A DNA stretch of 64,000 nucleotides from a virus. Every line of letters begins with the position of its first letter. Within the stretch, counting starts at the first letter, position 1. The position numbers and the translations under genes were made by a program. The notes beneath the pieces are model-generated. The model was not told the origin of the DNA and made no database searches. It was given only the letters and a program-made list of their open reading frames with translations. Shown here in pieces: positions 8,805-55,728 of the stretch. The stretch spans positions 256,001 to 320,000 of IMG/VR virus record IMGVR_UViG_3300045988_170943; one strand, given 5' to 3'.

Positions 8805-9095
8805 ATGGCTAAGAAGAAGAACAGGCGCACCCCCATTTACATCGGGTTCCATGTGCCGTCACACACATCCACGGAACATGCACTCGCCACCATAAGTGGC
8901 GCCACCAAGATGCTACTGGACGACGGAACCTGGAAAACCATGGGTATCAACGAAGGAGACGAGATAGTAGTAGCCTTCACCACCCCCACCAGTGCGCACG
9001 CCCCCGAGTTCTTCCAGTCGCTCCAGTCCCTACTGTCCGTCACCCAAGACTTCACCCCACACTTCACCCAGTGGACCAAGGAGGACACCCAGTGA
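8805..9095 (+). CDS. Hypothetical protein
   Basis: 96-aa ORF with an AGGTAGGTAA RBS upstream. Confidence 0.3.
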   Translation: MAKKKNRRTPIYIGFHVPSHTSTEHALATISGATKMLLDDGTWKTMGINEGDEIVVAFTTPTSAHAPEFFQSLQSLLSVTQDFTPHFTQWTKEDTQ

Positions 9096-10366
9096 TCGGT
9101 GACGCCATCTACACCCGTGAAGAGTTCCTAAAACAGCCCGTAGACTTCCGTATCGGCGGGATCATCAGTGACGGCCAGTGGTACAGTTTCCCGAAGTGGA
9201 AGATGATGAGCAACTGCACCGAAGAGGAACTGTCCGCATGGATCGAAGAGCACATGCTTGACGGAAGTCTCCTCCAGTCCCCAACGGGCGCGAAGTCGTA
9301 CCGACTACGCCTGGATGCGATGCTTGACTGGTACAATGACCACGACCTTGAGTTCCCCGGCCAACTCACCAAGTTCATCTACCCGCCCAGGGTGTGGGAC
9401 GGCATGACGGAGGTTGATGGATTCCTTAAAGCCCCGCTACGTACCATCGGTATAGTTTCCTTCAACTGCTCCAACAGCACGGCAGAGAGGATCACTGAAG
9501 AACTCCGAGGTATTGCCAGAGTCCGTGAGGTTGAGCCAGGCAGGTGGAAAGCATTCTGCCTGAACGCCCAGTATGTTCGCAGTATTGTCGCCAGCATCCT
9601 GGATGAGGTGGACGACCCTGGTAAGAAGATCCACACGATGACGGCCGCAAAACGCCGGGAGATGCAGGACTTCACTGACGAGTTCAATCGGGGCATGCTT
9701 GCTTTCTATGTCTCATACTCTAAAGAGAACACGCTGAAGAGCCTCATGGAGACCATCAGGATTTTCATCCCGAACGAGGAAGACCAGAACTCACAGATCA
9801 CCGAGTGGGTTATTCTCGCTATTCAAAAGTTCGATGAGTCCGCGTCCGTCCCATTCAGCGGCTACCTAGACGCAGTACTGAAACGGTGGCCCTTTGACCT
9901 GCCGCAAGCGCACCTGGGGAAGGAACTGAGCACCTTCCAACGCAACCGCTCACGCGCTATCAAGGCTCTCAAGAAGCGTTTCAAGGGCCGGGAAATGTTC
10001 ACTAGCAGCGAGTTAGCAGAAGAGATGGACATATCCATGGCTAAGTTCGCCGACCTAGATGAGAAGCACAACGTGTGGCTTCGCACAAAGAGGGCCACGG
10101 AACTGAATTGGGAAGGACGCTCTGACGAGAAAGAGGCAGACCAGCACTCCAACATCATGATGGGTGGCGTCGGCACAATCCCCTCAGACATCACCCTAGC
10201 CCACAAACTATCTGTCGCGGTAGTTTCGTCCGCTATTGATACTGGAAGGTTCGACGACGCCTACACGCTGATCAGTCAGATCGACGTCAGAGACATTGAC
10301 ATGAAACAGGTGGAGTCTCTGTCACCAGAGTTCGTGAAGGCGCTCGGGTCGAAACTCGCAATCTAA
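9071..10366 (+). CDS. Hypothetical protein whose C-terminal half looks like a divergent sigma-70 region 2-4 (possible additional sigma-like factor)
   Basis: KFDESASVPFSGYLDAVLKRW resembles the sigma region 2.3/2.4 pattern FDPSRGxxFSTYAxxWI. TSSELAEEMDISMAKFADL is HTH-like. The N-terminal 240 aa are unassigned. Confidence 0.35.
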   Translation: MDQGGHPVIGDAIYTREEFLKQPVDFRIGGIISDGQWYSFPKWKMMSNCTEEELSAWIEEHMLDGSLLQSPTGAKSYRLRLDAMLDWYNDHDLEFPGQLTKFIYPPRVWDGMTEVDGFLKAPLRTIGIVSFNCSNSTAERITEELRGIARVREVEPGRWKAFCLNAQYVRSIVASILDEVDDPGKKIHTMTAAKRREMQDFTDEFNRGMLAFYVSYSKENTLKSLMETIRIFIPNEEDQNSQITEWVILAIQKFDESASVPFSGYLDAVLKRWPFDLPQAHLGKELSTFQRNRSRAIKALKKRFKGREMFTSSELAEEMDISMAKFADLDEKHNVWLRTKRATELNWEGRSDEKEADQHSNIMMGGVGTIPSDITLAHKLSVAVVSSAIDTGRFDDAYTLISQIDVRDIDMKQVESLSPEFVKALGSKLAI

Positions 10367-10393: not shown

Positions 10394-10903
10394 ATGCCCA
10401 GACTAACCCAGCAGGAGAGAGACTTCATCCAGGAGTCCCTAGGCCACACGACCAGTGCCCCCAAGAACAATCTAGACGAGGACACAGCCACTACTAGGGA
10501 TGCGGAAGGTGCGGGCAGCGAAGTGACATCCAGCCAAGAGGATGACAGGGCTCGCACCAGCCGGAGGCACCGCAACCTGGAACGCAACGTGAGATTCTGG
10601 GCAAACCCCATATTCTGGATGTCCCTCATCATGGTGGCAGCGTCCTTATTCACTGGTGCCGTCACCTGGCTGGACTACCGGGCCAGAACATACCTAGGTG
10701 ACTCTATCGACTGGCTGGTGCAGCAGGGCCTATCGGAGGACTTCATCAAGATCACGAACCAGGCTGGTATGGGGTGGCTCCCAGACTTCATCCGGTTCTA
10801 CCCGTACAGGTGGACTGCTGTCGGGGCCGTGTGGGTTATTGCTGTTGCCATCATTCTCATCATCATGTTCATCGACTACCAGCGACACAAGGAGGACAAG
10901 TGA
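10394..10903 (+). CDS. Membrane protein (3 predicted TM helices)
   Basis: 169 aa with an acidic N-terminus, then IFWMSLIMVAASLFTGAVTWL and WTAVGAVWVIAVAIILIIMFI. Confidence 0.45.
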   Translation: MPRLTQQERDFIQESLGHTTSAPKNNLDEDTATTRDAEGAGSEVTSSQEDDRARTSRRHRNLERNVRFWANPIFWMSLIMVAASLFTGAVTWLDYRARTYLGDSIDWLVQQGLSEDFIKITNQAGMGWLPDFIRFYPYRWTAVGAVWVIAVAIILIIMFIDYQRHKEDK

Positions 10904-11676
10904 CCAGCAGGCCCAAAGGCGACCGGGACAAGACCTCCAAGAATAGTGGCGCTAGCAGCAAGAGCAAAGGACACACAACAAAGGAAACAACCATTAGGGA
11001 GGCTAGCAAGTCAACCGTGAGGATCCCCAGGTCGCTCGCGTTCATCCGTACCCGAAACGGGGCCATAATCACCTCCCTAGCGGCCGTCATTCTCGCACTC
11101 TCCATACTGCTGACCATCAGTATCACGAACAGTGGTCAGATCATTCCTGCCAGCAAGGAAGAGCAAACCACCAGCACAACCACCACTAGGGGGCTGTCTG
11201 GTCGCACTGCCGACGAGGACAAGGCGGACGCTGTTGCAACCGCAGCGACCCTCCTCAACGCCGCCAACAAGCACACTGGCGACCAGACAGCAGACCAGAG
11301 AGTCCAGGCCCTAGAGCAGTCAGGCGACCACAGTAGCCTCGCGGACCTGACCACCATGGATGCCCTCACCAGGTACACACCCGAGTTCGACGAAGCCCTG
11401 AAAACCACCACCAGACAGTCACTCATTAAGGCGTCCTCACTGCTAGACGACAACAACGACGGCAAGATCGAGGTCAGGGGCAACAAGCCCCACCAGTACG
11501 TGTACCTTGACCAGCAGGCAGGGGTAGCCTATATCCCCCTCCAGGTGTTCTCCGAACACGCCCCAGCGTTCTCCCTAGAGATGGTGTACGTCGATGGGCA
11601 GTGGAGGTTCGCCCCATACACCCTCCTAGACGCCATCAGACTGTCAGCAGCCCTAGGGGGCACACAACAGCACTAG
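10900..11676 (+). CDS. Hypothetical membrane-anchored protein (start uncertain)
   Basis: The ORF track starts at 10774, inside the previous gene. A GTG at 10900 overlaps the upstream TGA. One TM (IITSLAAVILALSILLTISI). Confidence 0.3.
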   Translation: MTSRPKGDRDKTSKNSGASSKSKGHTTKETTIREASKSTVRIPRSLAFIRTRNGAIITSLAAVILALSILLTISITNSGQIIPASKEEQTTSTTTTRGLSGRTADEDKADAVATAATLLNAANKHTGDQTADQRVQALEQSGDHSSLADLTTMDALTRYTPEFDEALKTTTRQSLIKASSLLDDNNDGKIEVRGNKPHQYVYLDQQAGVAYIPLQVFSEHAPAFSLEMVYVDGQWRFAPYTLLDAIRLSAALGGTQQH

Positions 11677-11797: not shown

Positions 11798-14101
11798 ATG
11801 AGCATTAGCCTGAGAAGCGTTGAACTGTCCAACATCCGCCACCACAAGCACTTCATGTTCAAGCCCGCTGACACTGGAGTCACCACCATACGTGGGGCCA
11901 CCGGGGCAGGTAAGTCCAGCATCGTTGACTCTGTAGCCTGGACCCTGTTCGGAACCAAGCCGCGAGGGGTCACAAAAAACAGTGCCATCATGCGAGATCA
12001 GGCCATCTGGGGGGAGGATAAGTTCTACGCCCGCATCACCCTCAACGTGGACGACACTGTGATGATGGTGGAGCGACGCATCGTTTCCAAGACCGGGACC
12101 GTCGAGTGCGACGTATGGGAGACACCCCAAAACACGTACACTGGTGACGACAGTGCGTTCACTGACGACACACACAAGGCCGGGGCGTCCGTCACCAGTG
12201 CTGAATCCTACATTAGGTCCAGGATCAAGATGGATGCGAAAGGGTTCCTCGCCGCCGTCCTCGTCCAGCAGAAGCAGGTAGACTCCCTTGTCACGGCCAG
12301 CCCCACGGAGCGGGCACAGGTCATTGAGAAACTGACCGGAATCTCCGCCGTTACCCTCGCCCTAAAGAAAGCCAGAGAGGTCAGCAGCGAGCACAAGAAA
12401 ACACTCGCCTCAACAAACGTTGACGAAAAGCGGTCCGTTGAACTACACCAGCAGGCAGACGCCCTCAACAAGGAGATCACCGCCCTCACTGACTCCCTCT
12501 CCAAACAGGAGAAAAGATGCCAGGACGCCAGAACCAAGCACAAGGAGGCAGAGCAGGAGTATACGCACCTGAGTGACCTGTATGAGCAACAGGAAACCAA
12601 GGTACGCAAGGTCAACGAGAACACCGCCCTCATCAAGTCTCTACAAGCCGACCTGGCGGACATCATCAACCAGAAGAAGGACCTCAAATCCACCATGCGG
12701 GCAGCGGCGGGGGCATCAGTTCCACCAGCGGCCAAAGTCTGGCAGGAGATGATCGACACCCAGTCGTCCTTGTCCGCTGCACGGTCCAGGCATGCCGACC
12801 TCGCCAACAGTATCGCCACCTGGGAGTCCGAGGCCCAGCAAGTCAGTGACACCATGACCACGACAGGTGTCACCACCATACAAGACGCCGAACAGGCCAA
12901 GGCAGAGCACACCGCCAAGGTAGAAGACCTTAAAGCCCAGTCTCACCAGCATGTCGCCGACGGGAAAGCCCTGGAGACCGAGATCACCAAACTACGTAAA
13001 GCCATCACCGCCCTCACCGATGGGGAAGGCACATGCCCCACCTGCCTCCAGAAGGTTGACGCCATCAACACCGTCCTGGCGAAACTTAACCAGGAAGTCT
13101 CCGACGCGGAACAGAAGATCGAACACTACCGTGACCTATACCGGCAGACCGCGACAGCCATCAAGGAGGAGACCAGTCAAGTAGAAGCCCTGAACGAAGC
13201 CATTAAGGCTGTCCACGACCAGGAGGCCCTGACTCAACAAATCAGCCAAGCGAGGACACAGGTCGCCTCTCTGGCTGGACAGGTGAGAGCACTGGAGGCA
13301 CAGGTAGAGTCCACCCGCAAGGTACTCGCCACAGCCGAGGAGAACGAGACCCAGAAAACCAGGTACGACGAACTGGCGGCCAGGGGCCTACACATCTCAG
13401 ACCGGATTGAAGCCCTGGAGAAGGAACTCGACGACATCAAAACCACCACCAGCGGAGGCCCTAACGTCACCCTGAAAAAACTCGCCACACTCAGAGGTAA
13501 GGTAGACACGATGGCAACCAAGGCTCACGAGGCCGACATGAGACGACTCGAAACCCAGTCGCAGATCAACGTCGCTCAGGAACGATCCAGGTCTATCCAG
13601 GTGCAAGCCCAGCAGGTTGACGCTGAGATCGCCAAGTACAAGGACATGCTCACCCAGGTGGAGGAGGCAGTCACCACCACCAATGTCGTCGAAAGGTTCC
13701 GCGAGACCCGCATCGAGGACTCTGTGCCAGTCATCGAGGAGTACGCATCTGACCTGATCTCTAGGTTTACGTCAGGGAAGTTCGTGCGCCTAGAGATGGA
13801 TAAGAAGTTCAACGCCACTGTGGTCCTCGCCGACGGCCGCAGACGCCCAGTAGGAATGCTGTCCGGCGGAGAGATGTCAGCAGCAGCCATCGCCCTCAGA
13901 GTCGCCATCTCCATGCTACTCAACCAAGGCACCAGCCAGAACCTCATCATCCTCGACGAGGTTCTAGTCTCCCAGGACTACACCCGCGCTGAAGCCATCA
14001 TCGAGACTATCCGAGAGATCTGCAAAGGCCAGATCGTCCTCATTGCCCACAACGACTCCATTGACGCACACAGCGACAAAGTGGTCGAAATAACCCCGTA
14101 A
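11798..14101 (+). CDS. SbcC/Rad50-family SMC-like ATPase with CxxC zinc hook
   Basis: N-terminal Walker A GATGAGKSSIVDSVAWTLFG. About 500 aa of heptad-rich coiled coil with a central hook GEGTCPTCLQKVD. C-terminal ABC signature LSGGEMSAAAIALRVAISMLL and Walker B LIILDEVLVSQD. The second Met, at 11798, aligns better with SbcC N-termini than the track start at 11780. Confidence 0.65.
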   Translation: MSISLRSVELSNIRHHKHFMFKPADTGVTTIRGATGAGKSSIVDSVAWTLFGTKPRGVTKNSAIMRDQAIWGEDKFYARITLNVDDTVMMVERRIVSKTGTVECDVWETPQNTYTGDDSAFTDDTHKAGASVTSAESYIRSRIKMDAKGFLAAVLVQQKQVDSLVTASPTERAQVIEKLTGISAVTLALKKAREVSSEHKKTLASTNVDEKRSVELHQQADALNKEITALTDSLSKQEKRCQDARTKHKEAEQEYTHLSDLYEQQETKVRKVNENTALIKSLQADLADIINQKKDLKSTMRAAAGASVPPAAKVWQEMIDTQSSLSAARSRHADLANSIATWESEAQQVSDTMTTTGVTTIQDAEQAKAEHTAKVEDLKAQSHQHVADGKALETEITKLRKAITALTDGEGTCPTCLQKVDAINTVLAKLNQEVSDAEQKIEHYRDLYRQTATAIKEETSQVEALNEAIKAVHDQEALTQQISQARTQVASLAGQVRALEAQVESTRKVLATAEENETQKTRYDELAARGLHISDRIEALEKELDDIKTTTSGGPNVTLKKLATLRGKVDTMATKAHEADMRRLETQSQINVAQERSRSIQVQAQQVDAEIAKYKDMLTQVEEAVTTTNVVERFRETRIEDSVPVIEEYASDLISRFTSGKFVRLEMDKKFNATVVLADGRRRPVGMLSGGEMSAAAIALRVAISMLLNQGTSQNLIILDEVLVSQDYTRAEAIIETIREICKGQIVLIAHNDSIDAHSDKVVEITP

Positions 14102-14159
14102 CCAAAACTGGGGATGGTGATATTCGCCCATGATTCCAACATTTTAAGGGAGTAGACAC

Positions 14160-15404
14160 ATGAGCCTGTCACCACAGTGGCGCAACGTCATGGAGGCACT
14201 GTCCGACCCAGCCGTCTCCGAGGTGACAGCAAACGGGCCAGACTCATTCTTCGTATCCAGGGGCGGCACCCGCTACCACATGAAAGACGTCACCTTCAAA
14301 GACGTCGATGACTACATGCAGCAGATCGGCGAAAACCTCATCCCACTGGTCCGATCAGCACACGACTGGGACCCAAACGGCATCCTCTACGAAGGCTACC
14401 TGAGCGCCCGCATCCATGGAAAAAAGGTCGCGGGCCGGTGCACCATCGTCCTCCCCCCAGCCTGCCTGACCGCCCAGATCTGCATCACTAACCGTGTCGC
14501 CTCCCTCACCACCCTGGAAGACATCGCCAGCACCGGGTCCATGAGCACCGAGATGCTGGACTTCATCAAGGCGGCCGTAGACAGCGACCTCACCATCGCC
14601 GTCAGCGGATCCACAGGTGCCGGGAAGACCACCCTCATGGAAGCCTGCACGAAACGGTTCTCCAACACGTCAAGAATCGGTGTCGCTGAGGACATGCCCG
14701 AACTACACCTTGTCCAACCGAACGTCTCCTACCTTAACTCCGTACCCTGGAAACCCGGAATGAAGGAAGAAGAATCCGTGTCCCTGACCTGGGTCGTCCA
14801 ACAGTACCAGCGACTCAGGGTCGATAAGGTGATCGTTGGTGAGGTTCGCGGCAAGGAGTTCGCCGACTTCCTCATCGCCGCGAACTCCGGTCTGGGCGGC
14901 TCCATGATCACCCTCCACGCCGAAGATCCCCAGAACTGCCTAAACAAGATGACCGAGTTCGCGCTCGCCGGTGCACCAGGCAGGCCCATCAAGTCCATCA
15001 ACTCATCCATAGCGAACACCATCGACATCATCATCCAAATGGTCAAGACCCAGGACAAACGCAGACGGGTCTCACACATCCAGCAAGTCACCAGAACCGT
15101 GTCCGACGGCCCGGACGCCAAGATCGTCAGCGCACCCCTCTATTTGTGGGACAAGGAAACAGACACGTTCAGTAAGGCCGGGAACATAGAGGACGCCCTC
15201 AGGCAGAAGATGACAGCCCACGGCATCGACGTCCAAAGGTTCCTCACCTCAGAGATCGGCGCCAGATACCCCTCCCACGGCACAGTCGGCGGCATCACCC
15301 CACACAACAACACCATGCCTGCACCCACACCGGCCCCCGCAATGGGGACACCCGACACGAGTAGCACACAGCCCTTTCCAAGAGTCAGGCGCAGAACCAT
15401 ATGA
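14160..15404 (+). CDS. VirB11/TadA/CpaF-family secretion ATPase
   Basis: Walker A AVSGSTGAGKTTLMEA, Asp box, Walker B VIVGEVRGKEF and His box SMITLHAEDP. AAGGGAG RBS upstream. Confidence 0.7.
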   Translation: MSLSPQWRNVMEALSDPAVSEVTANGPDSFFVSRGGTRYHMKDVTFKDVDDYMQQIGENLIPLVRSAHDWDPNGILYEGYLSARIHGKKVAGRCTIVLPPACLTAQICITNRVASLTTLEDIASTGSMSTEMLDFIKAAVDSDLTIAVSGSTGAGKTTLMEACTKRFSNTSRIGVAEDMPELHLVQPNVSYLNSVPWKPGMKEEESVSLTWVVQQYQRLRVDKVIVGEVRGKEFADFLIAANSGLGGSMITLHAEDPQNCLNKMTEFALAGAPGRPIKSINSSIANTIDIIIQMVKTQDKRRRVSHIQQVTRTVSDGPDAKIVSAPLYLWDKETDTFSKAGNIEDALRQKMTAHGIDVQRFLTSEIGARYPSHGTVGGITPHNNTMPAPTPAPAMGTPDTSSTQPFPRVRRRTI

Positions 15405-16498
15405 CAGCACCAGTGGTAGCGTACGCAGATGACTATAGGCTCACCGTCGAGAGCCTGAGATTCTACGTACCCGCATTCCACCAAGGGGAAGAAGCCGAAC
15501 GCATACTCGTCGAATCAGGTGACACACTCCACCCACAGGAACGCAACCGCCTGGAGGTGCAGGCTCGCCTCAAAACCTTAGCCGTAGCGAAGATCGAGTC
15601 CATGTGCAAGCCTCTCATCGTGAGGGAGATCAACAAACTCATCAATGGCTCCCACCTCAGAGGCAACGACGACCTGTTTAACATCCTCTACGAGACCGGC
15701 GTCAAAGTCGGCATGATCAAGGGCCTAAGGCACTTCGACGTCAACAAGATCCAGGCCGGAGCCACAAACTACCTATTCCAGTGGATCGTCACCTATGCCA
15801 GGAAAGAGTTAGCAACCCATGAGGCCACCTTCGGTATCGCCCCATCCAGGTTCCAGAAACTCAAGAAAGTGTCCGCCGTCCGCAAGAAGATAACAGAACA
15901 GTTAGGTAGGTACGCCACCAACCAGGAAGTACTAGACTACTTCCATTCCGGGAAGGCCGACATCAAGACAATGGCCGGGAGACTCAACGCCCCCAACAAA
16001 GGGTACGCCTCCAACAAGGCAATCACCATGGACCTTGTTCAGGAGCAGGAGAAGTTCGAGAAGACCATGGCCTATGTGCAACTCCTCGACCCCCTGGAAG
16101 ACTACCAGCGACAGTTAGACCAGGCCGTCCACCCACCTAAGCCCTTCAACGAGACCATCTTCGGGGCCTTCAACGACACCCACCCCATGACCGACCAGGC
16201 TGTCGCCGTCCTCATGAGTGAACTGGGCAACTACACAGACATGACCCCACAGGTGAGACACGAACTGGACGCCATGACCAAGAAAGAGTACCGGGCCACC
16301 CTCAAACGCATCACAGAGATGGCTACCGACCCACACGGCCCTTTCCAGGCGTTCATCCGCGCTAACGCCGCCACCCTGGACGCCGGATGGGACTACATGG
16401 TGGGCGAGGAAAACAACAGCACTACAGACAAGGTGCGTGCACGATACACGGCAGCACTGTTCCCGCACGGACTGGAAACACGCACAGGAGAACACTAA
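15401..16498 (+). CDS. Divergent sigma-70-like factor
   Basis: FDVNKIQAGATNYLFQWIVTYARKEL matches the sigma region 2 pattern. The ATG overlaps the TGA of the upstream ATPase gene (ATGA). Confidence 0.4.
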   Translation: MTAPVVAYADDYRLTVESLRFYVPAFHQGEEAERILVESGDTLHPQERNRLEVQARLKTLAVAKIESMCKPLIVREINKLINGSHLRGNDDLFNILYETGVKVGMIKGLRHFDVNKIQAGATNYLFQWIVTYARKELATHEATFGIAPSRFQKLKKVSAVRKKITEQLGRYATNQEVLDYFHSGKADIKTMAGRLNAPNKGYASNKAITMDLVQEQEKFEKTMAYVQLLDPLEDYQRQLDQAVHPPKPFNETIFGAFNDTHPMTDQAVAVLMSELGNYTDMTPQVRHELDAMTKKEYRATLKRITEMATDPHGPFQAFIRANAATLDAGWDYMVGEENNSTTDKVRARYTAALFPHGLETRTGEH

Positions 16499-16910: not shown

Positions 16911-17201
16911 ATGACAGACACACTAAACAAGCCTGAGATCATTACCAGGGTCGCATCAGCAACAGGCGATTCAAAGGCCACAGTAGAACGAGTCCTCACA
17001 TCCTTGGAGGAGGTAGTCACAGACTCCCTGTGTGAAGGCCGCGACGTCAAGATCAGTGGATTCCTCGCGTTCTCCACAGTTACCAGACCCGCACGCACCA
17101 CCAAGAACCCCAAGACAGGTGAGGATGTCAACGTGCCAGCCCGCAAGGCCCTCCGAATCCGGCCACTGTCCAGACTAAAGAGAACTATCCGCGCATCCTG
17201 A
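16911..17201 (+). CDS. HU/IHF-family nucleoid-associated DNA-binding protein
   Basis: 96 aa. The N-terminus (KPEIITRVASATGDSKATVERVLTSLEEVVTDSL) and arm region (GFLAFSTVTRPARTTKNPKTGEDVNVPARKALRIRP) are typical of the HU fold. GGATGGAGTG RBS upstream. Confidence 0.75.
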   Translation: MTDTLNKPEIITRVASATGDSKATVERVLTSLEEVVTDSLCEGRDVKISGFLAFSTVTRPARTTKNPKTGEDVNVPARKALRIRPLSRLKRTIRAS

Positions 17202-18577: not shown

Positions 18578-21500
18578 ATGAATCTAGCATTTCTGACAGG
18601 AAACGCACCCACGCCAGGGACACACTACCTTACAGGTGACGTCCAAGTGACCACCTGCAAGAGGAGCGCCCTGAAAGCCGTCACCCTTACCGCCGTCACC
18701 GTCATCATGCTCATTGGCCTCATCACACAGGCCATCACAGGTGGAGCAAGCAACCCGCTCACCAACAACCAGAACACCACGGCCGGAACCACTGCGCTAG
18801 CCGATGACGAATCCGACGCCAAGAAAGAAATCAAGGGCTTATCCGACAGTTACATCCAGAAGGACGAGGACGGAAAACCCAGCCTGTTCAACACCATCAA
18901 CAAGGCTGACGGGGAAGACTCACCAAACGACTTCGGCTACATTATGCGCCGACTATTCTCCACCGGATACATCAACCATGCCGGGGACGCAACCAACGAC
19001 GGCCGACAGGACAACTGCTACGTATCCCAATCTGGCACCCCCTACTACCACAACTGCGACGTACCCAACTTCATGACCGAGGCGTTACAGTCATTCATGG
19101 ACCCGTTCATCACCACCGGGCCACAGAACGCCGAGATCCGTAAAGCCAAAGGCGGGCTACTGTGGGTGTTTGACGGGATCCCCGACTCAGAGACCCTACC
19201 TGACGCCGGACCGGCTGTTGACGAGAACGCCCGGTCTGCTAAGTACACTGGCCTCGAAATCTTCGGATACAACCTCAACTACACCACCTACTTGGGCGAG
19301 TGGGACAACATCAAAGTGATGACCGCCGCCAGATCCCTGTCCAACTTCGGGTTCATGGACAGTCTCAAACTCGGCGCCACCGCCGTCATCAAAGGTGTCG
19401 CCAACGGTGTAGGCAACGCAGCATCCGGGTTTGTCAACAGGATCAGCACTGGTAACATCCTGGGCGCTGTCGGTGGACTTTGGTCCGACTTTGTGGGAGG
19501 ATCCTCGGCCGCAGTCGTCAAAGTCGTCATGGACACGTCCGACCAGAATGTCTTCAACAACTGGGCATGGTACCGGGTCGGCTACGGGTCTACACTTTAT
19601 AATGCCCGCGAACTCACCGCCGAAGAGACAGCCGCACAAGCAAAACGCGCCCTGTACAACATGATCCTCGGATCCCAACCGGACGCGGCCACGGCACCCC
19701 AGGAACTCAAAGACCTTAAGAAACCGGCTGCACCTGCCGATGAGACCTCCAAGTGCGTTATCCGCGTCAACGGGAAAGCCACAGAGCAGAAGAACGCCTC
19801 CGACAACGGTATCACAGAAGGCGACTGCAAACTTCAGGCGAACACGGCAGCCCCAGACGGAAAAGCCCACAAGGTTAACACCCCCAATGACCTGAAGAAA
19901 GACGGCGACTACGCCTGGAAGAAAGACGGCACCAGCAAACGCCAGACCCTCAAGGAATGGGTCGCCGCCAACCAGGCCACCTTCAACACCGCCAAGAAGT
20001 ACGGCATGTCCATCAACACTGATGGGGACGAGTCCAAGCGTGACGAAGTAGCCCAGAAAATCCTCTCCGAGTGGGACCGCGAGTATTCCAAGGCTCTCCA
20101 AAACTCCACCGCCAAAGAGGCAGAAGCCAAAAACAGCGAATGGGTGAACCAGTTACTCGGCACCGCAGCATTCGCCGCGCACATCCTGTCCAACCCGTCC
20201 CAAAGTTACAATGCTCCGTGGTCCCGGTTCGCCTGCACCAACGCGGACGGCACCGACATGCATGAAGACAACGGCACCCTCGTCATGCTCATGGACTCTG
20301 ACGGCAACATGAACCCCAAATGCTCCGGGGTGCGTCCACCTATCCAGGACGGGCTCTTCGGTAACGGCTACACAGGCGACGCCAAGAACCAGGTTGGTAC
20401 AGACACGCGCCGAGCGCGCCTCAACACCAACGTGCTCGCAAATCTGATCCCCCTCGACTCAGCATTCGACAGTGTGGCAGCGTTCTGGCTAGGTGTCGCC
20501 ACCACCTCCACCATGGTATCCAACGAGGTCATGTCCTGGGCATTCAGCCCACTCCTGTCCCAACTCGGGATCACAGACATCGTGGTCAACACCATCAAGT
20601 TCATGCGAGACAGCATCTTCTTCCCACTCGCAGCGATCATGGTGGCGTTCGGCGCATTCATGGCCCTGTGGAACCTCGCCAGGAAAGGCAACGCGAAAGA
20701 AACCATCATCACACTGTGCCTCATCATCGCAACCTTCGCAACCGGGGTAGCCCTCCTACAATCACCAGGCCGCACCGTCAAAGCCATAGACACCATCCCC
20801 TCCATGGTTGAACAAACCATTGTTGGGTACATATTCTCCGCCAACAATGAGCCAGTAGACCAGTTGTGCACGGCATCAGGAACTGTGTCAACCAAGGCAG
20901 GCACCGGCCTAGAAGATGAGCAACTACCATTCACCCCATCTGAAGGCACCAGGTCTCTCATGTGCGAGAACTGGCGAACCTTCGCGTTCAACCCATGGGT
21001 GTACGGCCAGTGGGGGACAGGCTACCACAACCTGTACGCCAACGGCAGCGGCAAGGACGGGGCGTGGGACAACAAGAACAGCAGTATTGTCGGTGACGCC
21101 GCAGTCCCCCTAGGTAACAACATCAGCGAAAAGAACTGGGGACTCTACCAGTTGCGTGCCACCACATCCGGCACCGCCTACTACACGGACCAGTCCAACC
21201 CGACAGGCCGCATCAACCGGGACTTCTACAGGATCGTTGACGCCCAGGCAGGCCCCAGCAACGCAGCCAACTCCTACCCACGGTACTTCAACACGTGGAG
21301 CGGAACCAACCTAGCCCCGCGTGCTGGAACAGCCATGCTCGGCGGCATCATTGGTGTACTCGGAGCATACACCGTCATCGTCTACTCTGTGACTAAAGTG
21401 CAGGTCACGTTCATCGTCACCATGCTGCTGCTCATCATGCCGCTCATGCTGCTCATGGGGATCCTCCCATACTTTGGGACTGGGAAACTACGCCGTTACT

Positions 21501-22717
21501 TCGGCACCATCGGTGGACTCATGGTGCAGCGCGTCTTCATCGCCTTGTTCCTCGCCGTCATGTTCCGCATCCTCGCCGGGGTGGGCACGGCATCCTCCAG
21601 TTACCCCAACCTGGCCTTGTTCACAGCCGCGATCTGCGTGTTCTTCCTCATGATCCGTAAGGAAGTTGAGGAGATGATCTTCCGTAGCGTCGCCAGCAAG
21701 TTCGGAGGCTCCATGGCCGACGCCTTCCGCCGTGACCCAAGTGGGTTCATCAGAGGGCAGATCGGGCGTGGCGGCCAAGGAGGATTCATCTCCAACAAGG
21801 CCGAGATAGCGAAGTCCACGGTCGTTGGTGCTGCTGCCGGTGCTACCGCCGCGAAACTCACTGGCGGCAGCGGTCTACGCGCAGCCCTCGACAGTGTACG
21901 AACCAACACCACTAACCTTCGCAACCAGCAGAGGAGACGCGGATACAGGACACTGGACACGCTCTCAAGGGGTGCCCAGGCTGGTAAACAGGCCGGTAGA
22001 CGGCAGTTGGCTGACGACCAGTACGCGACCGACATCAAACGTGAAGCATACCGTGACACAAAGGTATGGAAGGACTACGAGTCTGCCGCACGCGCCTATG
22101 ACGCCCTACCCACCAAGGAGGAGCGGAACATACGGACCGGGAAGATGGAGACGTTCAAGTACGACCCAGCAACCGGGAAACGCATGGAGAAACCGGAGGC
22201 CCCAACATTCGAGTCTGCGTCCAAGGACCTCAACATCACGATCCCTGGACGCAAGTTGAAGAAACTCGCCGACCGGAGACGCAAGGCCGACGACCTGGAG
22301 ATGGGCGGCAAGCCGGGCCAGAGGGTAGCCCCAGTTAAAAACCGTGCGAAAGACACGGAAGCACTGGTACATCGCACAGAGAAGAGAGTCCAAGACGCCT
22401 CTGACCCGAGTAAGGTTGCAGAACGTCGGCGTAAGGATGCTCGAAAGGATAAGCATCGTGAACGCATCGACGGGACGAGAGGCGTCCGTAAGATCACCAG
22501 GGAGTTCGACAAGAAGTACCAGTCCAGCAAGAATGAGGAGTACAGGGTGCGCATGAGGACCAGCCTGCATGAACTCATGGACGCAGCCGCAGCATACGAC
22601 CCTGAGAAGGATCAGGACAACACGGGCCTACCGGACTATATGGACCCTGTTGAGGGCGACATCTATGGGCCGGAACTGCCCTCCTATCATGAAAAGGATG
22701 AGGAGGAAGAGGAATGA
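18578..22717 (+). CDS. Giant polytopic membrane protein (1379 aa), VirB6/TrbL-like topology, with K/R/E-rich cytoplasmic tail
   Basis: Signal-anchor, then a ~570-aa extracytoplasmic domain, then a cluster of at least 7 TM helices (e.g. VTFIVTMLLLIMPLMLLMGILPYF) containing a conserved loop (NPWVYGQWGTGYHNLYANG ... NWGLYQL ... DFYRIVDA), then a ~280-aa charged tail. Paralogous to the next gene. Confidence 0.6.
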   Translation: MNLAFLTGNAPTPGTHYLTGDVQVTTCKRSALKAVTLTAVTVIMLIGLITQAITGGASNPLTNNQNTTAGTTALADDESDAKKEIKGLSDSYIQKDEDGKPSLFNTINKADGEDSPNDFGYIMRRLFSTGYINHAGDATNDGRQDNCYVSQSGTPYYHNCDVPNFMTEALQSFMDPFITTGPQNAEIRKAKGGLLWVFDGIPDSETLPDAGPAVDENARSAKYTGLEIFGYNLNYTTYLGEWDNIKVMTAARSLSNFGFMDSLKLGATAVIKGVANGVGNAASGFVNRISTGNILGAVGGLWSDFVGGSSAAVVKVVMDTSDQNVFNNWAWYRVGYGSTLYNARELTAEETAAQAKRALYNMILGSQPDAATAPQELKDLKKPAAPADETSKCVIRVNGKATEQKNASDNGITEGDCKLQANTAAPDGKAHKVNTPNDLKKDGDYAWKKDGTSKRQTLKEWVAANQATFNTAKKYGMSINTDGDESKRDEVAQKILSEWDREYSKALQNSTAKEAEAKNSEWVNQLLGTAAFAAHILSNPSQSYNAPWSRFACTNADGTDMHEDNGTLVMLMDSDGNMNPKCSGVRPPIQDGLFGNGYTGDAKNQVGTDTRRARLNTNVLANLIPLDSAFDSVAAFWLGVATTSTMVSNEVMSWAFSPLLSQLGITDIVVNTIKFMRDSIFFPLAAIMVAFGAFMALWNLARKGNAKETIITLCLIIATFATGVALLQSPGRTVKAIDTIPSMVEQTIVGYIFSANNEPVDQLCTASGTVSTKAGTGLEDEQLPFTPSEGTRSLMCENWRTFAFNPWVYGQWGTGYHNLYANGSGKDGAWDNKNSSIVGDAAVPLGNNISEKNWGLYQLRATTSGTAYYTDQSNPTGRINRDFYRIVDAQAGPSNAANSYPRYFNTWSGTNLAPRAGTAMLGGIIGVLGAYTVIVYSVTKVQVTFIVTMLLLIMPLMLLMGILPYFGTGKLRRYFGTIGGLMVQRVFIALFLAVMFRILAGVGTASSSYPNLALFTAAICVFFLMIRKEVEEMIFRSVASKFGGSMADAFRRDPSGFIRGQIGRGGQGGFISNKAEIAKSTVVGAAAGATAAKLTGGSGLRAALDSVRTNTTNLRNQQRRRGYRTLDTLSRGAQAGKQAGRRQLADDQYATDIKREAYRDTKVWKDYESAARAYDALPTKEERNIRTGKMETFKYDPATGKRMEKPEAPTFESASKDLNITIPGRKLKKLADRRRKADDLEMGGKPGQRVAPVKNRAKDTEALVHRTEKRVQDASDPSKVAERRRKDARKDKHRERIDGTRGVRKITREFDKKYQSSKNEEYRVRMRTSLHELMDAAAAYDPEKDQDNTGLPDYMDPVEGDIYGPELPSYHEKDEEEEE

Positions 22718-22906: not shown

Positions 22907-25900
22907 ATGATTCTCAGGCATATGCAGCCGCAAGGGGCATCCTACATGACCCCGAACGGTGCGGGTAGGGCACATGACGGTGCCGGGCACAAGCGCACCA
23001 TTGTCGCCACCGTCATGGTAATGCTGTCTGTCCTCATGCTCACCTTCGCTGGCCTGTCCACTGCTGTCAACGTGCGTGAGAAGCAACAGGTGCAGGCTGG
23101 GGACTGGACTCAGTGGCTCATGTGTGAAGTACTACCAGAGTCAGCGAAGGAACTCTACCAGTTCAGCCAGTCGAAGGACCTCCAGTTCCATCTTCGCTCA
23201 AAGTCAGCAATCACTGGTGGAATTGATGACGTGGACGGTGGCCTGAACTGGATGCTGTCTGGCAGTAGCGGCACAGACTTCAAGAAGGTCAATGAGGAGA
23301 TCCTGGGGTTCAGTCTCGACCCAGAAAGTGACGGGCAGTCTCAACCGAACCAGCAGTCAGGTAGCCAGCAAGACCAGAAGCAGGCTGGAGATCAGAAGAG
23401 CGGGGACGGGAAGACTCCCACTGGTGGCAAATACGTCAACCCATACGACCGGTTTGGTGTCGCTGGGATGAAGTTCAGTGCCTACCAGGGTGAGTGGAAG
23501 TACTTCGTTATCGATGCCTGCAAAAAGGACGGGGAGCCGAACGACCCGAAAGCCGGGCTGTTCTATGACAGTCGCCTGGAACCGCGTAGCGGCTGGGAAG
23601 ACATTGGGAACTCCAAGGATGTGCGCACCCAGCAGTTCCAGGCTAACCCATCCGCACCTATTCTCGCCACGGCCCTGAACAGTGTCGCCAACGGGCTATT
23701 CAACATCACGAAACTTATCGTCAGTGTCACTATCGCATTTGTTGGGTTCTCATTCTCTGACATCGTACACACCATGGGGCTCGATAACGTTATCGGCGGC
23801 CAGTCGGGCATGTTCAAGAACCTGTTCAATGGTGTGTTCATGCCACTGGTTGTCTTCGCGTTCCTCACGACCGGGGGCTATCTCATCTACAATGGGGTCT
23901 ACAAGGGGCGTTACCGTGAGTCATTCAACTCGGTAGCAAGATCGTTCCTGATCTTCGCTATCGCCATTGTTGTCGGCATGCACCCGGCACAGGCAATGAC
24001 ACTACCGAACAAAGCCATCGTATGGTTCCAGTCCGTGGTCGTCCTGAGCCTCAACAGTCAGATCGCGGGCGGAGACGACATGTGTGCAACTGACATCGGC
24101 CAAGTCAACTCCAAGATCATCGAGTCTCAGGGGAAGAGTGAGCAAGGGGTCCTGGATGAGGCCGCCCAGAACATCCGGTCAGTGGTCAGTTGCCGAATGT
24201 GGCAGGTCCTCCTCCTCAAACCATGGGCGGAAGGACAATTCGGCACCGACATCAATAACCTGTGGGCCAACGGCAACAAGCCAGGGTGGGCGCCAGAGAA
24301 CGCACAGGAACTCGGCAACAGTAACAACGACATGGTTGGCAGCGCGGAAGTCCCCCTGGGTGAAGGCAAAAGCATCCACAACTGGGGCATATACCAGATC
24401 TCCACGCAGACCAACGCGCACTGGGTCACATCCGGTAACGGCACCAGGGTGAAACCAATCAACGGTGTTGCTGGGGACTGGTACCGGATTGTTGACGCTC
24501 TTGCTAACTATGATGAGGAGGACGCCAAGGAGAAGCCATCCGACAACGCTGAAGAGATTACGTACAAGGTCCCTAAGGAGTCCAATAAGGTCAGTCCTTA
24601 CTGGGATGCGTGGGTGGGGAATAGCGTCGCCAGCAGGTACACGTCCGCCTTGTCCTCCATCCTGGTAGCCGCCCTGGTGTGCGCATCTATGGCCCTGTTT
24701 GCCGGGTGGGCGTCCGTGTACACGATAGGTCTGGCTATACTCCTTGGTTTCGCGCCCCTGTTCATGCTTCTGGCCTGTTGGGCAGGTAGAGGCTGGGAGA
24801 TTTTCAAAGGGTGGGCAGAACTCACAGTTAAGACCGGGCTCAGTCGCATCGTGGTTGGGATACTGCTTGTCTTCAACATTCTCATTGTCAACAACATCCT
24901 AAATATGGCGAACACCCTGTCCTGGGGGAAGATGATCACCCTTCTGATGATCCTTACCGTCATCATGTTCAAGGGGCGTGAGAAGATCACTGAGATGTTC
25001 GCTGCCGTCCAGTTCGGTGGCGTGAACATGGCCTCCACGGCCAGCAGAGTCACCGACCGAACCAAGAACATTGTTATGGCGCCAGTTAAGACATCTGGTC
25101 GTTTCGCAACCAGCGCCGTGGGTGGCGGTGTTGGGGCGAGGCGCGAGGGCGGGTCGTTCATGCGTGGCATGGGTGCTGGCGCGGTCCAGGAGTTTAAAAA
25201 CATGACCTACCGGTCCGGGATGCTCAGGGACGCGAGAACAACCTATGACACGCACGCCGCTGCCGCCGGGAAGAAAGGCGTCCTCGTGTCTGAGATGAAC
25301 TGTGCCGTATGTGGTAAGCCACTCGACTATGAGCAGAATCAGTACGGCACCCAACAGTTCATTGGCGGCCGCGACCGGAACGGTAACCTCGTGTGCCGCG
25401 AGTGCCTTGAAGACGGCATGGGTGACGATGTTCAGGAGGTCACATTCAACCGTCCGACCGCTGCACAGAGGCGCGACGCCAGCAAGAGCAAGGACGCACA
25501 ACGCAAGAAGATCCGAGAGAGTTACAACAAGCGGTTCACTGACGACACAGCCGGTCGAACTGTAGCCGAGAATACGGCCAGCGGAATCCATGACATGCGC
25601 AACGAGGACTTGAACACCATTGCGGGCAGGGAGAATCGTGCAGAGAACGAGGCTAAGTTGCGTGCCGCCATGAGTATGGTCCACCAAGACGTTTATGCTC
25701 ACAAGTCCGCCAAAGATTACAGTCGAGACAAAAAGAAAGACCCCAGGACGATAACCACCACAAAACTCCCCAAGGAGATCGACGGGATCGTAGACAAGGA
25801 CGCCCTCCAGGAAGCGTGGATGAAACAGGACTACAACTATGTGATCATGACCTATGTGTCAGCCTGGATTGTCTGGTATCAGCAGAACACAGGCGTCAAG

Positions 25901-26068
25901 TACAGTGCCGACATCAACTCCACCTACTATGCTGTCAAGAACAAGAACCTGGAGGCATTCGACAAGGCCGAGTACCATCGCATCATGGATGAGGGTAAAA
26001 CAAGACGAGCCGACGCTAAGGCAAAGAACCAGGCCCCAAGTGGCGGCGGCAGTGAGGATAAGGAATGA
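22907..26068 (+). CDS. Giant polytopic membrane protein (1053 aa), paralog of the preceding gene, with C-terminal zinc-ribbon-containing charged tail
   Basis: It shares the PWAEGQFGTDINNLWANG ... NWGIYQI ... DWYRIVDA motifs with the 1379-aa protein and has multiple TM helices. The tail contains CAVCGKPL ... LVCRECLED (CxxC ... CxxC). Confidence 0.6.
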   Translation: MILRHMQPQGASYMTPNGAGRAHDGAGHKRTIVATVMVMLSVLMLTFAGLSTAVNVREKQQVQAGDWTQWLMCEVLPESAKELYQFSQSKDLQFHLRSKSAITGGIDDVDGGLNWMLSGSSGTDFKKVNEEILGFSLDPESDGQSQPNQQSGSQQDQKQAGDQKSGDGKTPTGGKYVNPYDRFGVAGMKFSAYQGEWKYFVIDACKKDGEPNDPKAGLFYDSRLEPRSGWEDIGNSKDVRTQQFQANPSAPILATALNSVANGLFNITKLIVSVTIAFVGFSFSDIVHTMGLDNVIGGQSGMFKNLFNGVFMPLVVFAFLTTGGYLIYNGVYKGRYRESFNSVARSFLIFAIAIVVGMHPAQAMTLPNKAIVWFQSVVVLSLNSQIAGGDDMCATDIGQVNSKIIESQGKSEQGVLDEAAQNIRSVVSCRMWQVLLLKPWAEGQFGTDINNLWANGNKPGWAPENAQELGNSNNDMVGSAEVPLGEGKSIHNWGIYQISTQTNAHWVTSGNGTRVKPINGVAGDWYRIVDALANYDEEDAKEKPSDNAEEITYKVPKESNKVSPYWDAWVGNSVASRYTSALSSILVAALVCASMALFAGWASVYTIGLAILLGFAPLFMLLACWAGRGWEIFKGWAELTVKTGLSRIVVGILLVFNILIVNNILNMANTLSWGKMITLLMILTVIMFKGREKITEMFAAVQFGGVNMASTASRVTDRTKNIVMAPVKTSGRFATSAVGGGVGARREGGSFMRGMGAGAVQEFKNMTYRSGMLRDARTTYDTHAAAAGKKGVLVSEMNCAVCGKPLDYEQNQYGTQQFIGGRDRNGNLVCRECLEDGMGDDVQEVTFNRPTAAQRRDASKSKDAQRKKIRESYNKRFTDDTAGRTVAENTASGIHDMRNEDLNTIAGRENRAENEAKLRAAMSMVHQDVYAHKSAKDYSRDKKKDPRTITTTKLPKEIDGIVDKDALQEAWMKQDYNYVIMTYVSAWIVWYQQNTGVKYSADINSTYYAVKNKNLEAFDKAEYHRIMDEGKTRRADAKAKNQAPSGGGSEDKE

Positions 26069-51079: not shown

Positions 51080-51131
51080 TGCTATCGTGCCACCTAAGCG
51101 AAGGCAATGCCACACAAGAAAGGAACTTAAC

Positions 51132-55678: not shown

Positions 55679-55728
55679 CGACGGCAGATTGTACCTTAAT
55701 TCCACCACACCGATTGCAGGTGCCTCTT

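What the first reader, a model, noticed from the sequence alone, without database searches (positions are those of the whole stretch)
11798..15404. Lone SbcC/Rad50-like zinc-hook ATPase with no SbcD/Mre11 partner, directly upstream of a VirB11-type secretion ATPase
The 768-aa protein has all the SMC/Rad50 hallmarks: Walker A, a long coiled coil with a central CPTC hook, an ABC signature and a Walker B. The flanking genes are membrane proteins on one side and a VirB11/TadA ATPase on the other. Neither is a phosphoesterase nuclease. Orphan Rad50-like ATPases occur in some defence systems and in plasmid segregation or DNA-processing roles. Here the pairing with a secretion ATPase and a sigma-like gene in one operon is unusual and may mark a DNA-handling step of the transfer or injection apparatus. 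It could also be an anti-defence or defence function.
Basis: partly seen in the sequence, partly recalled or inferred. Interest (0 to 1): 0.6.

Follow-up and report, generated by a model that had tools for sequence, protein, structure and literature searches.

The report
Rad50-like ATPase with distant nuclease partner
The gene encodes a genuine Rad50/SbcC-type DNA-repair ATPase on a roughly 417-kb plasmid-like element, and it is not an orphan: its Mre11/SbcD-type nuclease partner is conserved about 66 kb further along the same element, so this is most likely an ordinary DNA-end-processing machine with an unusual split gene layout.

Summary
Window 11798-14101 (+) encodes a 767-aa Rad50/SbcC-like ATPase with every catalytic motif, a central CPTC zinc hook and a ~230-residue antiparallel coiled coil. 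A VirB11/TadA-type ATPase follows at 14160-15404. No Mre11/SbcD gene lies in the 64-kb window, nor within ±10 kb of the homologue in 55 related loci.

The "lone" reading fails at the level of the element. Walking along near-identical public contigs found a 416-aa Mre11/SbcD-type nuclease with all five phosphoesterase motifs intact. It sits 65.8-67.3 kb downstream on the same strand. Thirty of 55 related contigs, from six clades (GC 31-60%), carry both genes at clade-specific spacings of 22-79 kb. No other SMC-like gene lies beside the nuclease.

The element is a ~417-kb, 57% GC, plasmid-like replicon with Gram-positive-type transfer genes. It resembles the recently described "Inocle" giant elements and is filed as viral in IMG/VR. 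The Rad50-like gene always sits upstream of two giant VirB6-like membrane proteins. The secretion ATPase is missing from that position in three clades, so a functional link to it is weak.

Best reading: a split Mre11-Rad50/SbcCD pair that maintains a giant replicon. Interest is moderate to low.

The parts
11798..14101 (+). Rad50/SbcC-like zinc-hook ABC ATPase, 767 aa
   Evidence: Pfam AAA_23, SMC_N and SbcC_Walker_B; PHROG_77 at 4.6e-60; PDB Rad50 at 3.5e-40; AF2 model plus Foldseek Rad50 at 3e-22; family alignment A1; dN/dS 0.12-0.19
11894..11917 (+). Walker A, GATGAGKS (aa 33-40)
   Evidence: G33, G36, G38, K39 and S40 are invariant in A1
12266..12283 (+). Q-loop, QQKQVD (aa 157-162)
   Evidence: Q158-D162 are invariant in A1
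13034..13045 (+). Zinc hook, CPTC (aa 413-416), at the apex of the antiparallel coiled coil (arms aa 182-408 and 423-657)
   Evidence: C413, P414 and C416 are invariant; AF2 shows a loop between the two long helical arms; profile match to Rad50 hook structure 6zff
13859..13873 (+). ABC signature, LSGGE (aa 688-692)
   Evidence: Invariant in A1
13943..13960 (+). Walker B, LIILDE (aa 716-721), with the catalytic Glu721 retained
   Evidence: D720 and E721 are invariant. This differs from Lamassu LmuB, which has Gln at this position
14042..14056 (+). H-loop region, IAHND (H751)
   Evidence: H751 is invariant
14160..15404 (+). VirB11/TadA-type (T2SSE family) hexameric-type ATPase, 414 aa; Walker A GSTGAGKT aa 150-157
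   Evidence: Pfam T2SSE 4.7e-27, above the gathering score; NCBIfam TIGR03819 5.8e-40 and VirB11 1.4e-37, both below the curated cut-offs. It sits directly downstream of the Rad50-like gene in 7 of 10 representative clades
15401..16498 (+). Weakly sigma-70-like protein, 365 aa; its start overlaps the stop of the ATPase gene (ATGA)
   Evidence: NCBIfam sigma models at 5e-5 to 5e-3; no Pfam hit. Conserved next to the ATPase in 5 clades
10900..11676 (+). Conserved upstream single-pass membrane protein (258 aa, family F2)
   Evidence: Directly upstream of the Rad50-like gene in 7 of 10 representative clades; the two genes overlap by 4 nt in L041. Fold prediction was unusable at pLDDT 47
16911..17201 (+). 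HU-type DNA-binding protein, 96 aa
   Evidence: Pfam Bac_DNA_binding 3.8e-25; retained between the Rad50-like gene and the giant membrane proteins in 6 of 10 clades
18578..22717 (+). Giant polytopic membrane protein (1379 aa), paralogue of the next gene; VirB6/TrbL-like
   Evidence: Downstream of the Rad50-like gene in all 10 representative clades. Six of 12 family members hit Pfam TrbL, best 1e-5, all below threshold
22907..26068 (+). Giant polytopic membrane protein (1053 aa), VirB6/TrbL-like, with a C-terminal Cys-rich segment
   Evidence: Pfam TrbL 4.6e-4; family-wide TrbL signal; present in the 9 representative clades whose locus reaches this position

Best explanation
The gene encodes the ATPase subunit of an Mre11-Rad50/SbcCD-type DNA-end-processing complex. 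The complex belongs to a ~417-kb plasmid-like extrachromosomal element. The nuclease subunit is encoded about 66 kb downstream on the same strand, outside the window.

Proposed mechanism, inferred from the family: two ATPase protomers dimerise through the Zn hook and through ATP-engaged heads. They clamp DNA ends, hairpins or protein-blocked ends. ATP hydrolysis then licenses the bound Mre11/SbcD dimer to cut. This would feed recombinational repair or replication restart using the element's own RecA, SSB, RecG, DnaB and PIF1/RecD-like helicase, and so help maintain a giant, IS-bearing, low-copy replicon.

Shown here: motifs, fold, purifying selection, the presence and conservation of the unlinked nuclease gene, and the absence of any other SMC-like gene beside it.

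Inferred: physical pairing of the two proteins, their substrates and their biological role.

The position next to the VirB11/TadA-type ATPase is best read as conserved core-genome order, not as a shared machine.
For: - Every Rad50/SbcC ATPase motif and the CxxC hook are invariant across the family.
- Rad50 is the best match by sequence profile (3.5e-40) and by fold (3e-22).
- dN/dS is 0.12-0.19.
- The Mre11/SbcD-type protein (L079:17451-18698, 416 aa) scores 2.9e-23 against an SbcD/Mre11 seed HMM. The same HMM recovered the canonical sbcD of control locus L061.
- All 19 PDB profile hits of that protein are Mre11 or SbcD.
- Motifs I-V and a conserved C-terminal helical tail are invariant in 18 members.
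- Thirty of 55 Rad50-bearing IMG/VR contigs carry both genes on the same strand, at clade-specific spacings of 21.6-78.6 kb. Rad50-only contigs of those clades end before the expected distance.
- Only one Rad50-like locus was found per contig.
- No SMC-like ORF lies within ±10 kb of the nuclease in 46 of 47 loci. In the 47th (L106) it is the same Rad50-like family, 6.5 kb away.
- Identity to the window's copy falls in step for the two proteins across clades: ATPase 53/41/36/28% against nuclease 78/56/55/48%.
- The element carries RecA, SSB and DnaB inside the window. It carries RecG, PIF1-like and SNF2 helicases outside it. Relatives also carry LigA and NucS.
Against: - The two genes are never adjacent or co-oriented in an operon. 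As far as I know, that is the rule for sbcDC, mre11-rad50 and phage gp46/47.
- In the ~35% GC and ~27% GC clades the nuclease gene was not detected with two pattern sets, although those contigs have 80-190 kb of room. The ATPase may therefore work without it there, or the search missed it.
- The ATPase gene sits in a block of sigma, HU, secretion-ATPase and VirB6-like genes, not with the element's recombination genes.
- NCBIfam Rad50 and SbcC scores (about 122 and 94 bits) are far below the curated cut-offs of 700 and 478 bits.
- The nuclease gene was seen on near-identical relatives (about 97% nucleotide identity), not on the window's own contig, which could not be read beyond the window.
Confidence: 0.62

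Rival explanations
1. The Rad50-like ATPase is a DNA-handling accessory of the element's conjugative (type IV secretion-like) apparatus. It might tether or process the 0.4-Mb DNA, or relaxase-capped ends, at the VirB6-like channel, together with the VirB11/TadA-type ATPase. In this reading it works largely independently of the distant nuclease.
For: - The gene always lies between a conserved membrane protein and two giant VirB6/TrbL-like proteins, in clades spanning 26-61% GC, with short or overlapping intergenic gaps.
- This downstream block stays linked even where the upstream region is rearranged, as in L003 and L022.
- Transfer genes flank the region: TcpC, a NikA-like protein, a TadE-like protein and a cell-wall hydrolase.
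- The best NCBIfam match of the adjacent ATPase is a conjugal-transfer-associated TadA-family model.
Against: - The secretion ATPase is absent from this position in the 61%, 35% and 31% GC clades.
- The whole element is co-oriented and syntenic, so adjacency carries little functional weight.
- I know of no precedent for a Rad50-type subunit in a type IV secretion system.
- A cognate nuclease is conserved elsewhere on the element.
Confidence: 0.15
2. It is an SMC-like organiser or segregation factor for the giant replicon. It would work with the neighbouring HU protein and use hook-mediated bridging, without nuclease chemistry.
For: - An HU gene is retained nearby in 6 of 10 clades.
- Lone 'SMC family ATPase' genes of similar length occur on actinobacterial megaplasmids.
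- Weaker fold matches extend to Smc5/6, condensin and MukB.
Against: - It has a zinc hook rather than an SMC hinge.
- No kleisin-like or ScpAB/MukEF-like partner was recognised.
- Rad50 is the best match by sequence and by fold.
- The megaplasmid examples pair with MoxR-type AAA proteins and share only 23-28% local identity with this protein.
Confidence: 0.1
3. It is the sensor subunit of a Lamassu-like (LmuB) or other SMC-based defence or anti-defence system carried by the element.
For: - The PADLOC LmuB model PDLC03859 matches over the full length at 1.8e-37; weaker hits go to mad3, PbeC and DndD.
- LmuB proteins also have a Rad50-like head and a Zn hook.
Against: - LmuB proteins carry Gln in place of the Walker B Glu. 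This family keeps an invariant Asp-Glu.
- No LmuA or LmuC was recognised among the neighbours scanned.
- It is a single-copy core gene in fixed synteny across deep clades, not part of a variable defence island.
- Lamassu structures rank well below Rad50 in the fold search: 1.2e-11 against 3e-22.
Confidence: 0.05

Closest known systems
Bacterial SbcCD, archaeal Mre11-Rad50 and phage T4 gp46/gp47 DNA-end-processing complexes
   Same: - An ABC head with Walker A/B, Q-loop, signature and H-loop motifs.
- An antiparallel coiled coil with a CxxC zinc hook.
- An Mre11/SbcD-type nuclease with all five phosphoesterase motifs encoded in the same genome.
- The best hits by sequence and by fold.
   Different: - The genes are unlinked by 22-79 kb instead of forming an operon.
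- The protein is 767 aa, against 1048 aa for E. coli SbcC, so the coiled coil is shorter.
- Scores are far below the NCBIfam curated cut-offs.
- The host is a giant plasmid-like element, and the gene is embedded among sigma, HU and transfer genes.
Lamassu LmuB (DdmC) SMC-like defence sensor
   Same: A Rad50-like head, a coiled coil and a Zn hook; a PADLOC hit at 1.8e-37.
   Different: The Walker B Glu is retained. No LmuA or LmuC was recognised among the neighbours. It is a core syntenic gene. Its structural match is weaker than that to Rad50.
'Inocle' giant extrachromosomal elements of oral Streptococcus (Kiguchi et al. 2025, PMC12340149)
   Same: - Hundreds of kb in size, and absent from isolate genomes.
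- Co-oriented genes of mostly unknown function.
- A bifunctional transglycosylase/PBP, an S26 signal peptidase, sigma factors, a RecD/PIF1-like helicase, an 'exonuclease' and type IV secretion genes.
- Low-GC relatives of this Rad50-like gene sit on 244-315 kb contigs at 27-32% locus GC, close to the published Inocle sizes and GC.
   Different: - This element is 57% GC, against 24-32% for Inocles.
- The InoC marker (PF13814) was not seen in the 84 kb examined.
- No Inocle sequence was available for direct comparison, so the link is an inference.
VirB11 / TrbB / TadA (T2SSE-family) secretion ATPases
   Same: The neighbour gene matches Pfam T2SSE above threshold and has Walker A, Walker B-like and His-box-like segments.
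   Different: It scores below every NCBIfam equivalog cut-off. No TadB/C-type platform gene was recognised nearby.

Membership tests
Rad50/SbcC ATPase family | ABC-ATPase motifs: Walker A, Q-loop, signature, Walker B with catalytic Glu, H-loop | tested here: met
   All are invariant in the 21-sequence alignment A1; coordinates checked
Rad50/SbcC ATPase family | CxxC zinc hook at the apex of a long antiparallel coiled coil inserted in the head | tested here: met
   CPTC 413-416 is invariant. The AF2 model has arms 182-408 and 423-657. A profile hit reaches Rad50 hook structure 6zff
Rad50/SbcC ATPase family | Head fold closest to Rad50/SbcC among SMC-like proteins | tested here: met
   Foldseek top hit is Rad50 7zr1 at 3e-22; archaeal Rad50 heads give TMt 0.67-0.76; SbcC 7yzp scores 4e-12. 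The PDB profile search gives Rad50 at 3.5e-40
Rad50/SbcC ATPase family | Mre11/SbcD nuclease gene adjacent, in one operon | tested here: not met
   No metallophosphoesterase in the window or within ±10 kb in 55 family loci. The control locus L061 was detected at 2.5e-22
Rad50/SbcC ATPase family | Cognate Mre11/SbcD nuclease encoded in the same genome | tested here: met
   A 416-aa Mre11/SbcD-type gene lies 65.8-67.3 kb downstream in the window's clade. Thirty of 55 contigs carry both genes. This was seen on ~97%-identical relatives, not on the window's own contig
Rad50/SbcC ATPase family | Physical complex with the nuclease and ATP-dependent end or hairpin cleavage | not testable with these tools
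   Multimer prediction and biochemistry were not available
Rad50/SbcC ATPase family | Score above the curated NCBIfam equivalog or subfamily cut-offs | tested here: not met
   Rad50 PRK03918 scores 121.8 bits against a 700-bit cut-off; sbcc TIGR00618 scores 94 against 478.5
Lamassu LmuB | Walker B catalytic Glu replaced by Gln | tested here: not met
   D720-E721 are invariant; the criterion comes from bioRxiv 10.1101/2025.03.14.643221
Lamassu LmuB | Adjacent LmuA effector and LmuC | tested here: not met
   The neighbours are membrane proteins, a T2SSE ATPase and a sigma-like protein. No Lamassu (LmuA/LmuC) model matched the neighbours scanned; the T2SSE ATPase gave only weak P-loop hits to LeoBC, mad8 and LeoA (E 4e-4 to 5e-3)
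RecN | RecN-type SMC-like protein without a zinc hook, matching RecN models | tested here: not met
   No RecN model appears among the NCBIfam hits at E<=0.01, and a zinc hook is present. That RecN lacks a hook is my own knowledge
SMC/MukB condensins | Hinge dimerisation domain and kleisin partner | tested here: not met
   A hook loop of about 14 residues stands in place of a hinge. No kleisin-like neighbour was recognised
VirB11/TadA (T2SSE) ATPases (neighbour gene) | T2SSE domain above Pfam gathering score | tested here: met
   95 bits against a cut-off of 24.9. NCBIfam VirB11 scores 129 bits against a cut-off of 250, so equivalog-level membership is not met
Inocle giant extrachromosomal elements | InoC marker gene (about 454 aa, PF13814 domain) | tested here: inconclusive
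   Not found in the window or in the 20 kb of flanks scanned with Pfam. About 330 kb of the element was not examined
Inocle giant extrachromosomal elements | GC 24-32%, Streptococcus host | tested here: not met
   The window is 56.7% GC; published values are

The most novel reading that the evidence does not exclude
The ATPase and nuclease genes have stayed apart through deep divergence, and the ATPase gene is fixed at the head of the VirB6-like / VirB11-like transfer block. This layout may reflect a dedicated role in conjugative transfer or establishment of a 0.4-Mb replicon. One possibility is recognition or removal of relaxase-capped or broken ends at the transfer channel, with the ATPase expressed under the element's own sigma factors as part of the transfer programme.
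Probability: 0.1. Interest if true: 0.7.

Novelty: new member of a known kind. Interest (0 to 1): 0.33.

Why it matters
The result removes an apparent anomaly. What looked like an orphan Rad50 beside a secretion ATPase is one half of a conserved, unlinked Mre11-Rad50 pair.

Two points remain useful:
- Prokaryotic and phage Mre11-Rad50 genes are almost always in one operon. A stably split pair across six clades shows that 'orphan' calls made from a window or a short contig are unsafe on giant elements.
- The gene is a well-conserved, single-copy core marker for a large, little-studied group of giant plasmid-like elements (contigs of 0.24-0.83 Mb, locus GC 26-61%). These elements carry their own repair toolkit and are filed as viruses in IMG/VR. 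The marker could help to find and classify them.

Tried and rejected
- **Known plasmid or megaplasmid:** no DNA match in PLSDB; protein hits reach only 22-37% identity.
- **Known phage:** one weak hit, to the Moorella phage SbcC.
- **Cellular genome:** one hit, on a 3.8-kb MAG contig, among 185,579 GTDB species genomes.
- **Inocle proper:** the GC content does not fit.
- **Actinobacterial megaplasmid 'SMC family ATPase + AAA ATPase' pairs as the same system:** their AAA partner is MoxR-type (AAA_5), not T2SSE.
- **Upstream membrane protein as a VirB8/TcpC-like component:** the AF2 model reached only pLDDT 47, so no fold search was run.
- **Strand switch or replication terminus at ~62 kb:** rejected. 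The minus-strand ORFs 62444-63830 are shadows of a plus-strand ClpB-like gene that runs off the window end.
- **Promoter and terminator scan of 7-23 kb:** nothing above the shuffle expectation.
- **tRNA and Rfam searches:** nothing found.
- **Exact-protein look-ups for the two window-edge ORFs:** failed.
- **Nuclease gene in the ~35% and ~27% GC clades:** two pattern sets found nothing.
- **Literature searches** for high-GC Inocle-like elements, or for SbcC linked to VirB11, found nothing relevant.


Full report
**Observation.** The ORF at 11798-14101 (+) encodes 767 aa. An in-frame GTG lies at 11780, but all homologues begin at the ATG with MS(I/L)xL. Pfam gives AAA_23 (3.6e-15), SMC_N and SbcC_Walker_B. 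PHROGs gives the SbcC-like family phrog_77 at 4.6e-60. NCBIfam gives Rad50 (2.4e-35) and SbcC (6e-27), all far below the curated cut-offs.

A 21-sequence alignment of relatives (27-53% identity) keeps these positions invariant: Walker A (G33-S40), the Q-loop QQKQVD, the CPTC hook (413-416), LSGGE (688-692), Walker B D720-E721 and H751. A profile of that alignment hits archaeal Rad50 heads at 3.5e-40, E. coli SbcC at 2.8e-22 and a Rad50 hook structure.

An AlphaFold2 model (pLDDT 83) shows the split head, two helical arms (182-408 and 423-657) and a hook loop. Its best Foldseek match is Chaetomium Rad50 at 3e-22. Archaeal Rad50 heads give TMt 0.67-0.76, and Lamassu LmuB and Wadjet JetC score near 1e-11. 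Against four close relatives dN/dS is 0.12-0.19. The gene is real, expressed-protein-like and catalytically intact.

The next gene (14160-15404) is a T2SSE-family ATPase (Pfam 4.7e-27). It is closest to the TadA-family conjugal-transfer-associated model and to VirB11/TrbB. Its stop overlaps the start of a weakly sigma-like gene. Upstream lie two membrane proteins.

**What the window is.** All credible genes run on the + strand, GC is 57%, and A exceeds T strongly on that strand. There are no tRNAs and no Rfam matches.

The window's gene content:
- a cell-wall hydrolase and two giant VirB6/TrbL-like membrane proteins;
- three sigma-like genes and an HU gene;
- SSB, RecA and DnaB;
- an NrdG-like radical-SAM protein;
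- a MoxR AAA protein with a VWA/metallopeptidase protein;
- a class-A PBP with a PASTA domain.

Flanks read from near-identical public contigs add the following:
- upstream: TcpC, NikA-like and TadE-like proteins and a PIN-PhoH protein;
- downstream: a ClpB-like AAA protein, RecG, an intein-bearing NrdE and an S26 signal peptidase.

The exact ATPase protein sits on a 418,686-bp ENA contig, and on others of 409-418 kb. There is no DNA match in PLSDB, one weak phage hit and one hit in 185,579 GTDB species genomes. By contrast, 56 loci were found in IMG/VR, and about 100 protein clusters occur in metagenomes on contigs up to 740 kb.

Those loci fall into clades with locus GC from 26% to 61%. The size, gene content and absence from isolates match the description of 'Inocles' (PMC12340149). 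The low-GC relatives lie on 244-315 kb contigs, like the published Inocle taxa. This element's 57% GC does not fit, the InoC marker was not seen, and no Inocle sequence could be compared. The link is therefore an inference.

**Neighbourhood.** A gene-by-gene comparison shows that the Rad50-like gene is always followed, within 1-6 kb, by the two giant VirB6-like paralogues. It is usually preceded by the same single-pass membrane protein and two sigma-like genes. The T2SSE ATPase and the sigma-like gene follow it directly in 7 and 5, respectively, of 10 representative clades. They are absent from that position in the 61%, 35% and 31% GC clades. Six of 12 giant-protein family members independently hit Pfam TrbL, best 1e-5.

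**The partner.** An HMM built from three annotated SbcD/Mre11 proteins found nothing in the window or within ±10 kb in 55 family loci. It did recover the canonical sbcD of the most distant control locus at 2.5e-22. The first 10 kb on either side of the window were also negative.

A second step downstream found a 416-aa protein at 2.9e-23. Its PDB hits, both single-sequence (14) and profile (19), are exclusively Mre11 or SbcD. Precomputed Pfam calls it Metallophos. In 18 members the motifs D9/H11, D56/H59, N91/H92, H163 and H203/H205 are invariant, as is a C-terminal helical tail.

Contig coordinates place it 65.8-67.3 kb downstream of the ATPase gene, on the same strand, in four contigs of the window's clade. 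Across IMG/VR, 30 of 55 ATPase-bearing contigs carry it. The spacings by clade:

| Clade (locus GC) | Spacing |
|---|---|
| 31% | 21.6-23.3 kb |
| 60% | 53-61 kb |
| 57% and 42% | 65-67 kb |
| 47% and 36% | 73-79 kb |

ATPase-only contigs of these clades end before the expected position. In the ~35% and ~27% GC clades the nuclease gene was not detected.

No SMC-like ORF lies within ±10 kb of the nuclease gene in 46 of 47 loci. In the remaining one, the same Rad50-like family is 6.5 kb away on the opposite strand. Member lists of the two protein families share contig lengths of 379,078, 129,928 and 179,746 bp.

The nuclease's own neighbours are a PIF1/RecD-like helicase, cell-wall enzymes, a SpoU methylase and an SNF2 helicase. 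In a 52% GC relative, LigA and NucS are also present.

**Interpretation.** The simplest account is a split Mre11-Rad50/SbcCD pair that serves maintenance of a giant replicon carrying its own recombination genes.

A Lamassu-type role is disfavoured for three reasons. LmuB proteins carry Gln at the Walker B Glu position, and this family does not. No effector gene was recognised among the neighbours. The gene is also a fixed core gene, not part of a variable island.

A transfer-linked role cannot be excluded, given the invariant position upstream of the VirB6-like genes. However, adjacency means little in a fully co-oriented, syntenic element, and the secretion ATPase is not a constant neighbour.

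What remains unusual is the stable separation of the two genes. As far as I know, they form an operon in bacteria, archaea and phages.

**Limits.**
- The nuclease gene was seen on ~97%-identical relatives, not on the window's own contig.
- About 300 kb of the element was not examined.
- Pattern-based searches miss divergent copies in both directions.
- Physical pairing of the two proteins is inferred.

Noticed in passing
whole window; L003/L004, L006-L061, L178: The window belongs to a large group of giant elements: contigs of 0.24-0.83 Mb, locus GC 26-61%, all genes co-oriented and most proteins unknown. The group is almost absent from GTDB genomes and is filed as viral in IMG/VR. It resembles, but is much broader than, the published 'Inocle' elements (24-32% GC).
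   Followed up: partly
window 62076-64000 (+) versus 62444-63830 (-): The long minus-strand ORFs at the right end are shadows. The real gene is a plus-strand ClpB-like AAA_2 ATPase (650 aa) that runs off the window end, so there is no strand switch here.
   Followed up: yes
window 36187-37260 (+): This 357-aa ORF ends immediately after a P-loop (GPTGGGKS) followed by SLSIDTPVLV, which looks like an intein N-terminal block. It may be a split or interrupted VirD4/FtsK-type ATPase gene.
   Followed up: no
window 41766-42509 (+) and 43717-44268 (+): A Hint/intein-like N-terminal fragment (CFGD...VSGNHLFYV) and a free-standing HNH endonuclease lie close together. Just outside the window, NrdE carries an intein with a LAGLIDADG domain. 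In relative L035 the T2SSE ATPase is 937 aa, possibly because it too carries an intein.
   Followed up: no
window 7650-8600, 9071-10366, 15401-16498 (+): Three sigma-70-like genes lie within 9 kb. One is clearly group-1/RpoS-like (7e-45), one is weak and one is recognisable only by eye. The first two are conserved in 6 of 10 representative clades and the third in 5. This suggests the element programmes its own transcription.
   Followed up: partly
window 18578-22717 and 22907-26068 (+): Two paralogous giant polytopic membrane proteins with sub-threshold VirB6/TrbL similarity and long, charged cytoplasmic tails. The second carries a CxxC...CxxC zinc-ribbon-like segment. They are the only universal neighbours of the Rad50-like gene.
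   Followed up: partly
window 55714-58083 (+): A class-A penicillin-binding protein (transglycosylase plus transpeptidase) with a C-terminal PASTA domain. From memory, this architecture is typical of actinobacterial PonA2, which hints at an Actinomycetota host. Inocles are reported to carry a bifunctional transglycosylase too.
   Followed up: no
window 47509-49758 and 51087-52502 (+): A DUF2201 metallopeptidase/VWA protein and a MoxR-type AAA_5 ATPase flank the element's RecA gene. Relative L003 has the DUF2201 gene just upstream of the Rad50-like gene.
   Followed up: no
L106 (IMGVR_UViG_3300044557_000292, 419,707 bp): In this one lineage the Rad50-like gene lies only 6.5 kb from the Mre11/SbcD-like gene, on the opposite strand. 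Every other clade examined has a different layout.
   Followed up: no
L062 and L063 (canonical sbcDC loci used as seeds): Both canonical SbcCD loci, a Miltoncostaea plasmid and a Moorella phage, have a DHH-family phosphoesterase nearby. The plasmid locus also has a sigma-70 gene directly after sbcC.
   Followed up: no
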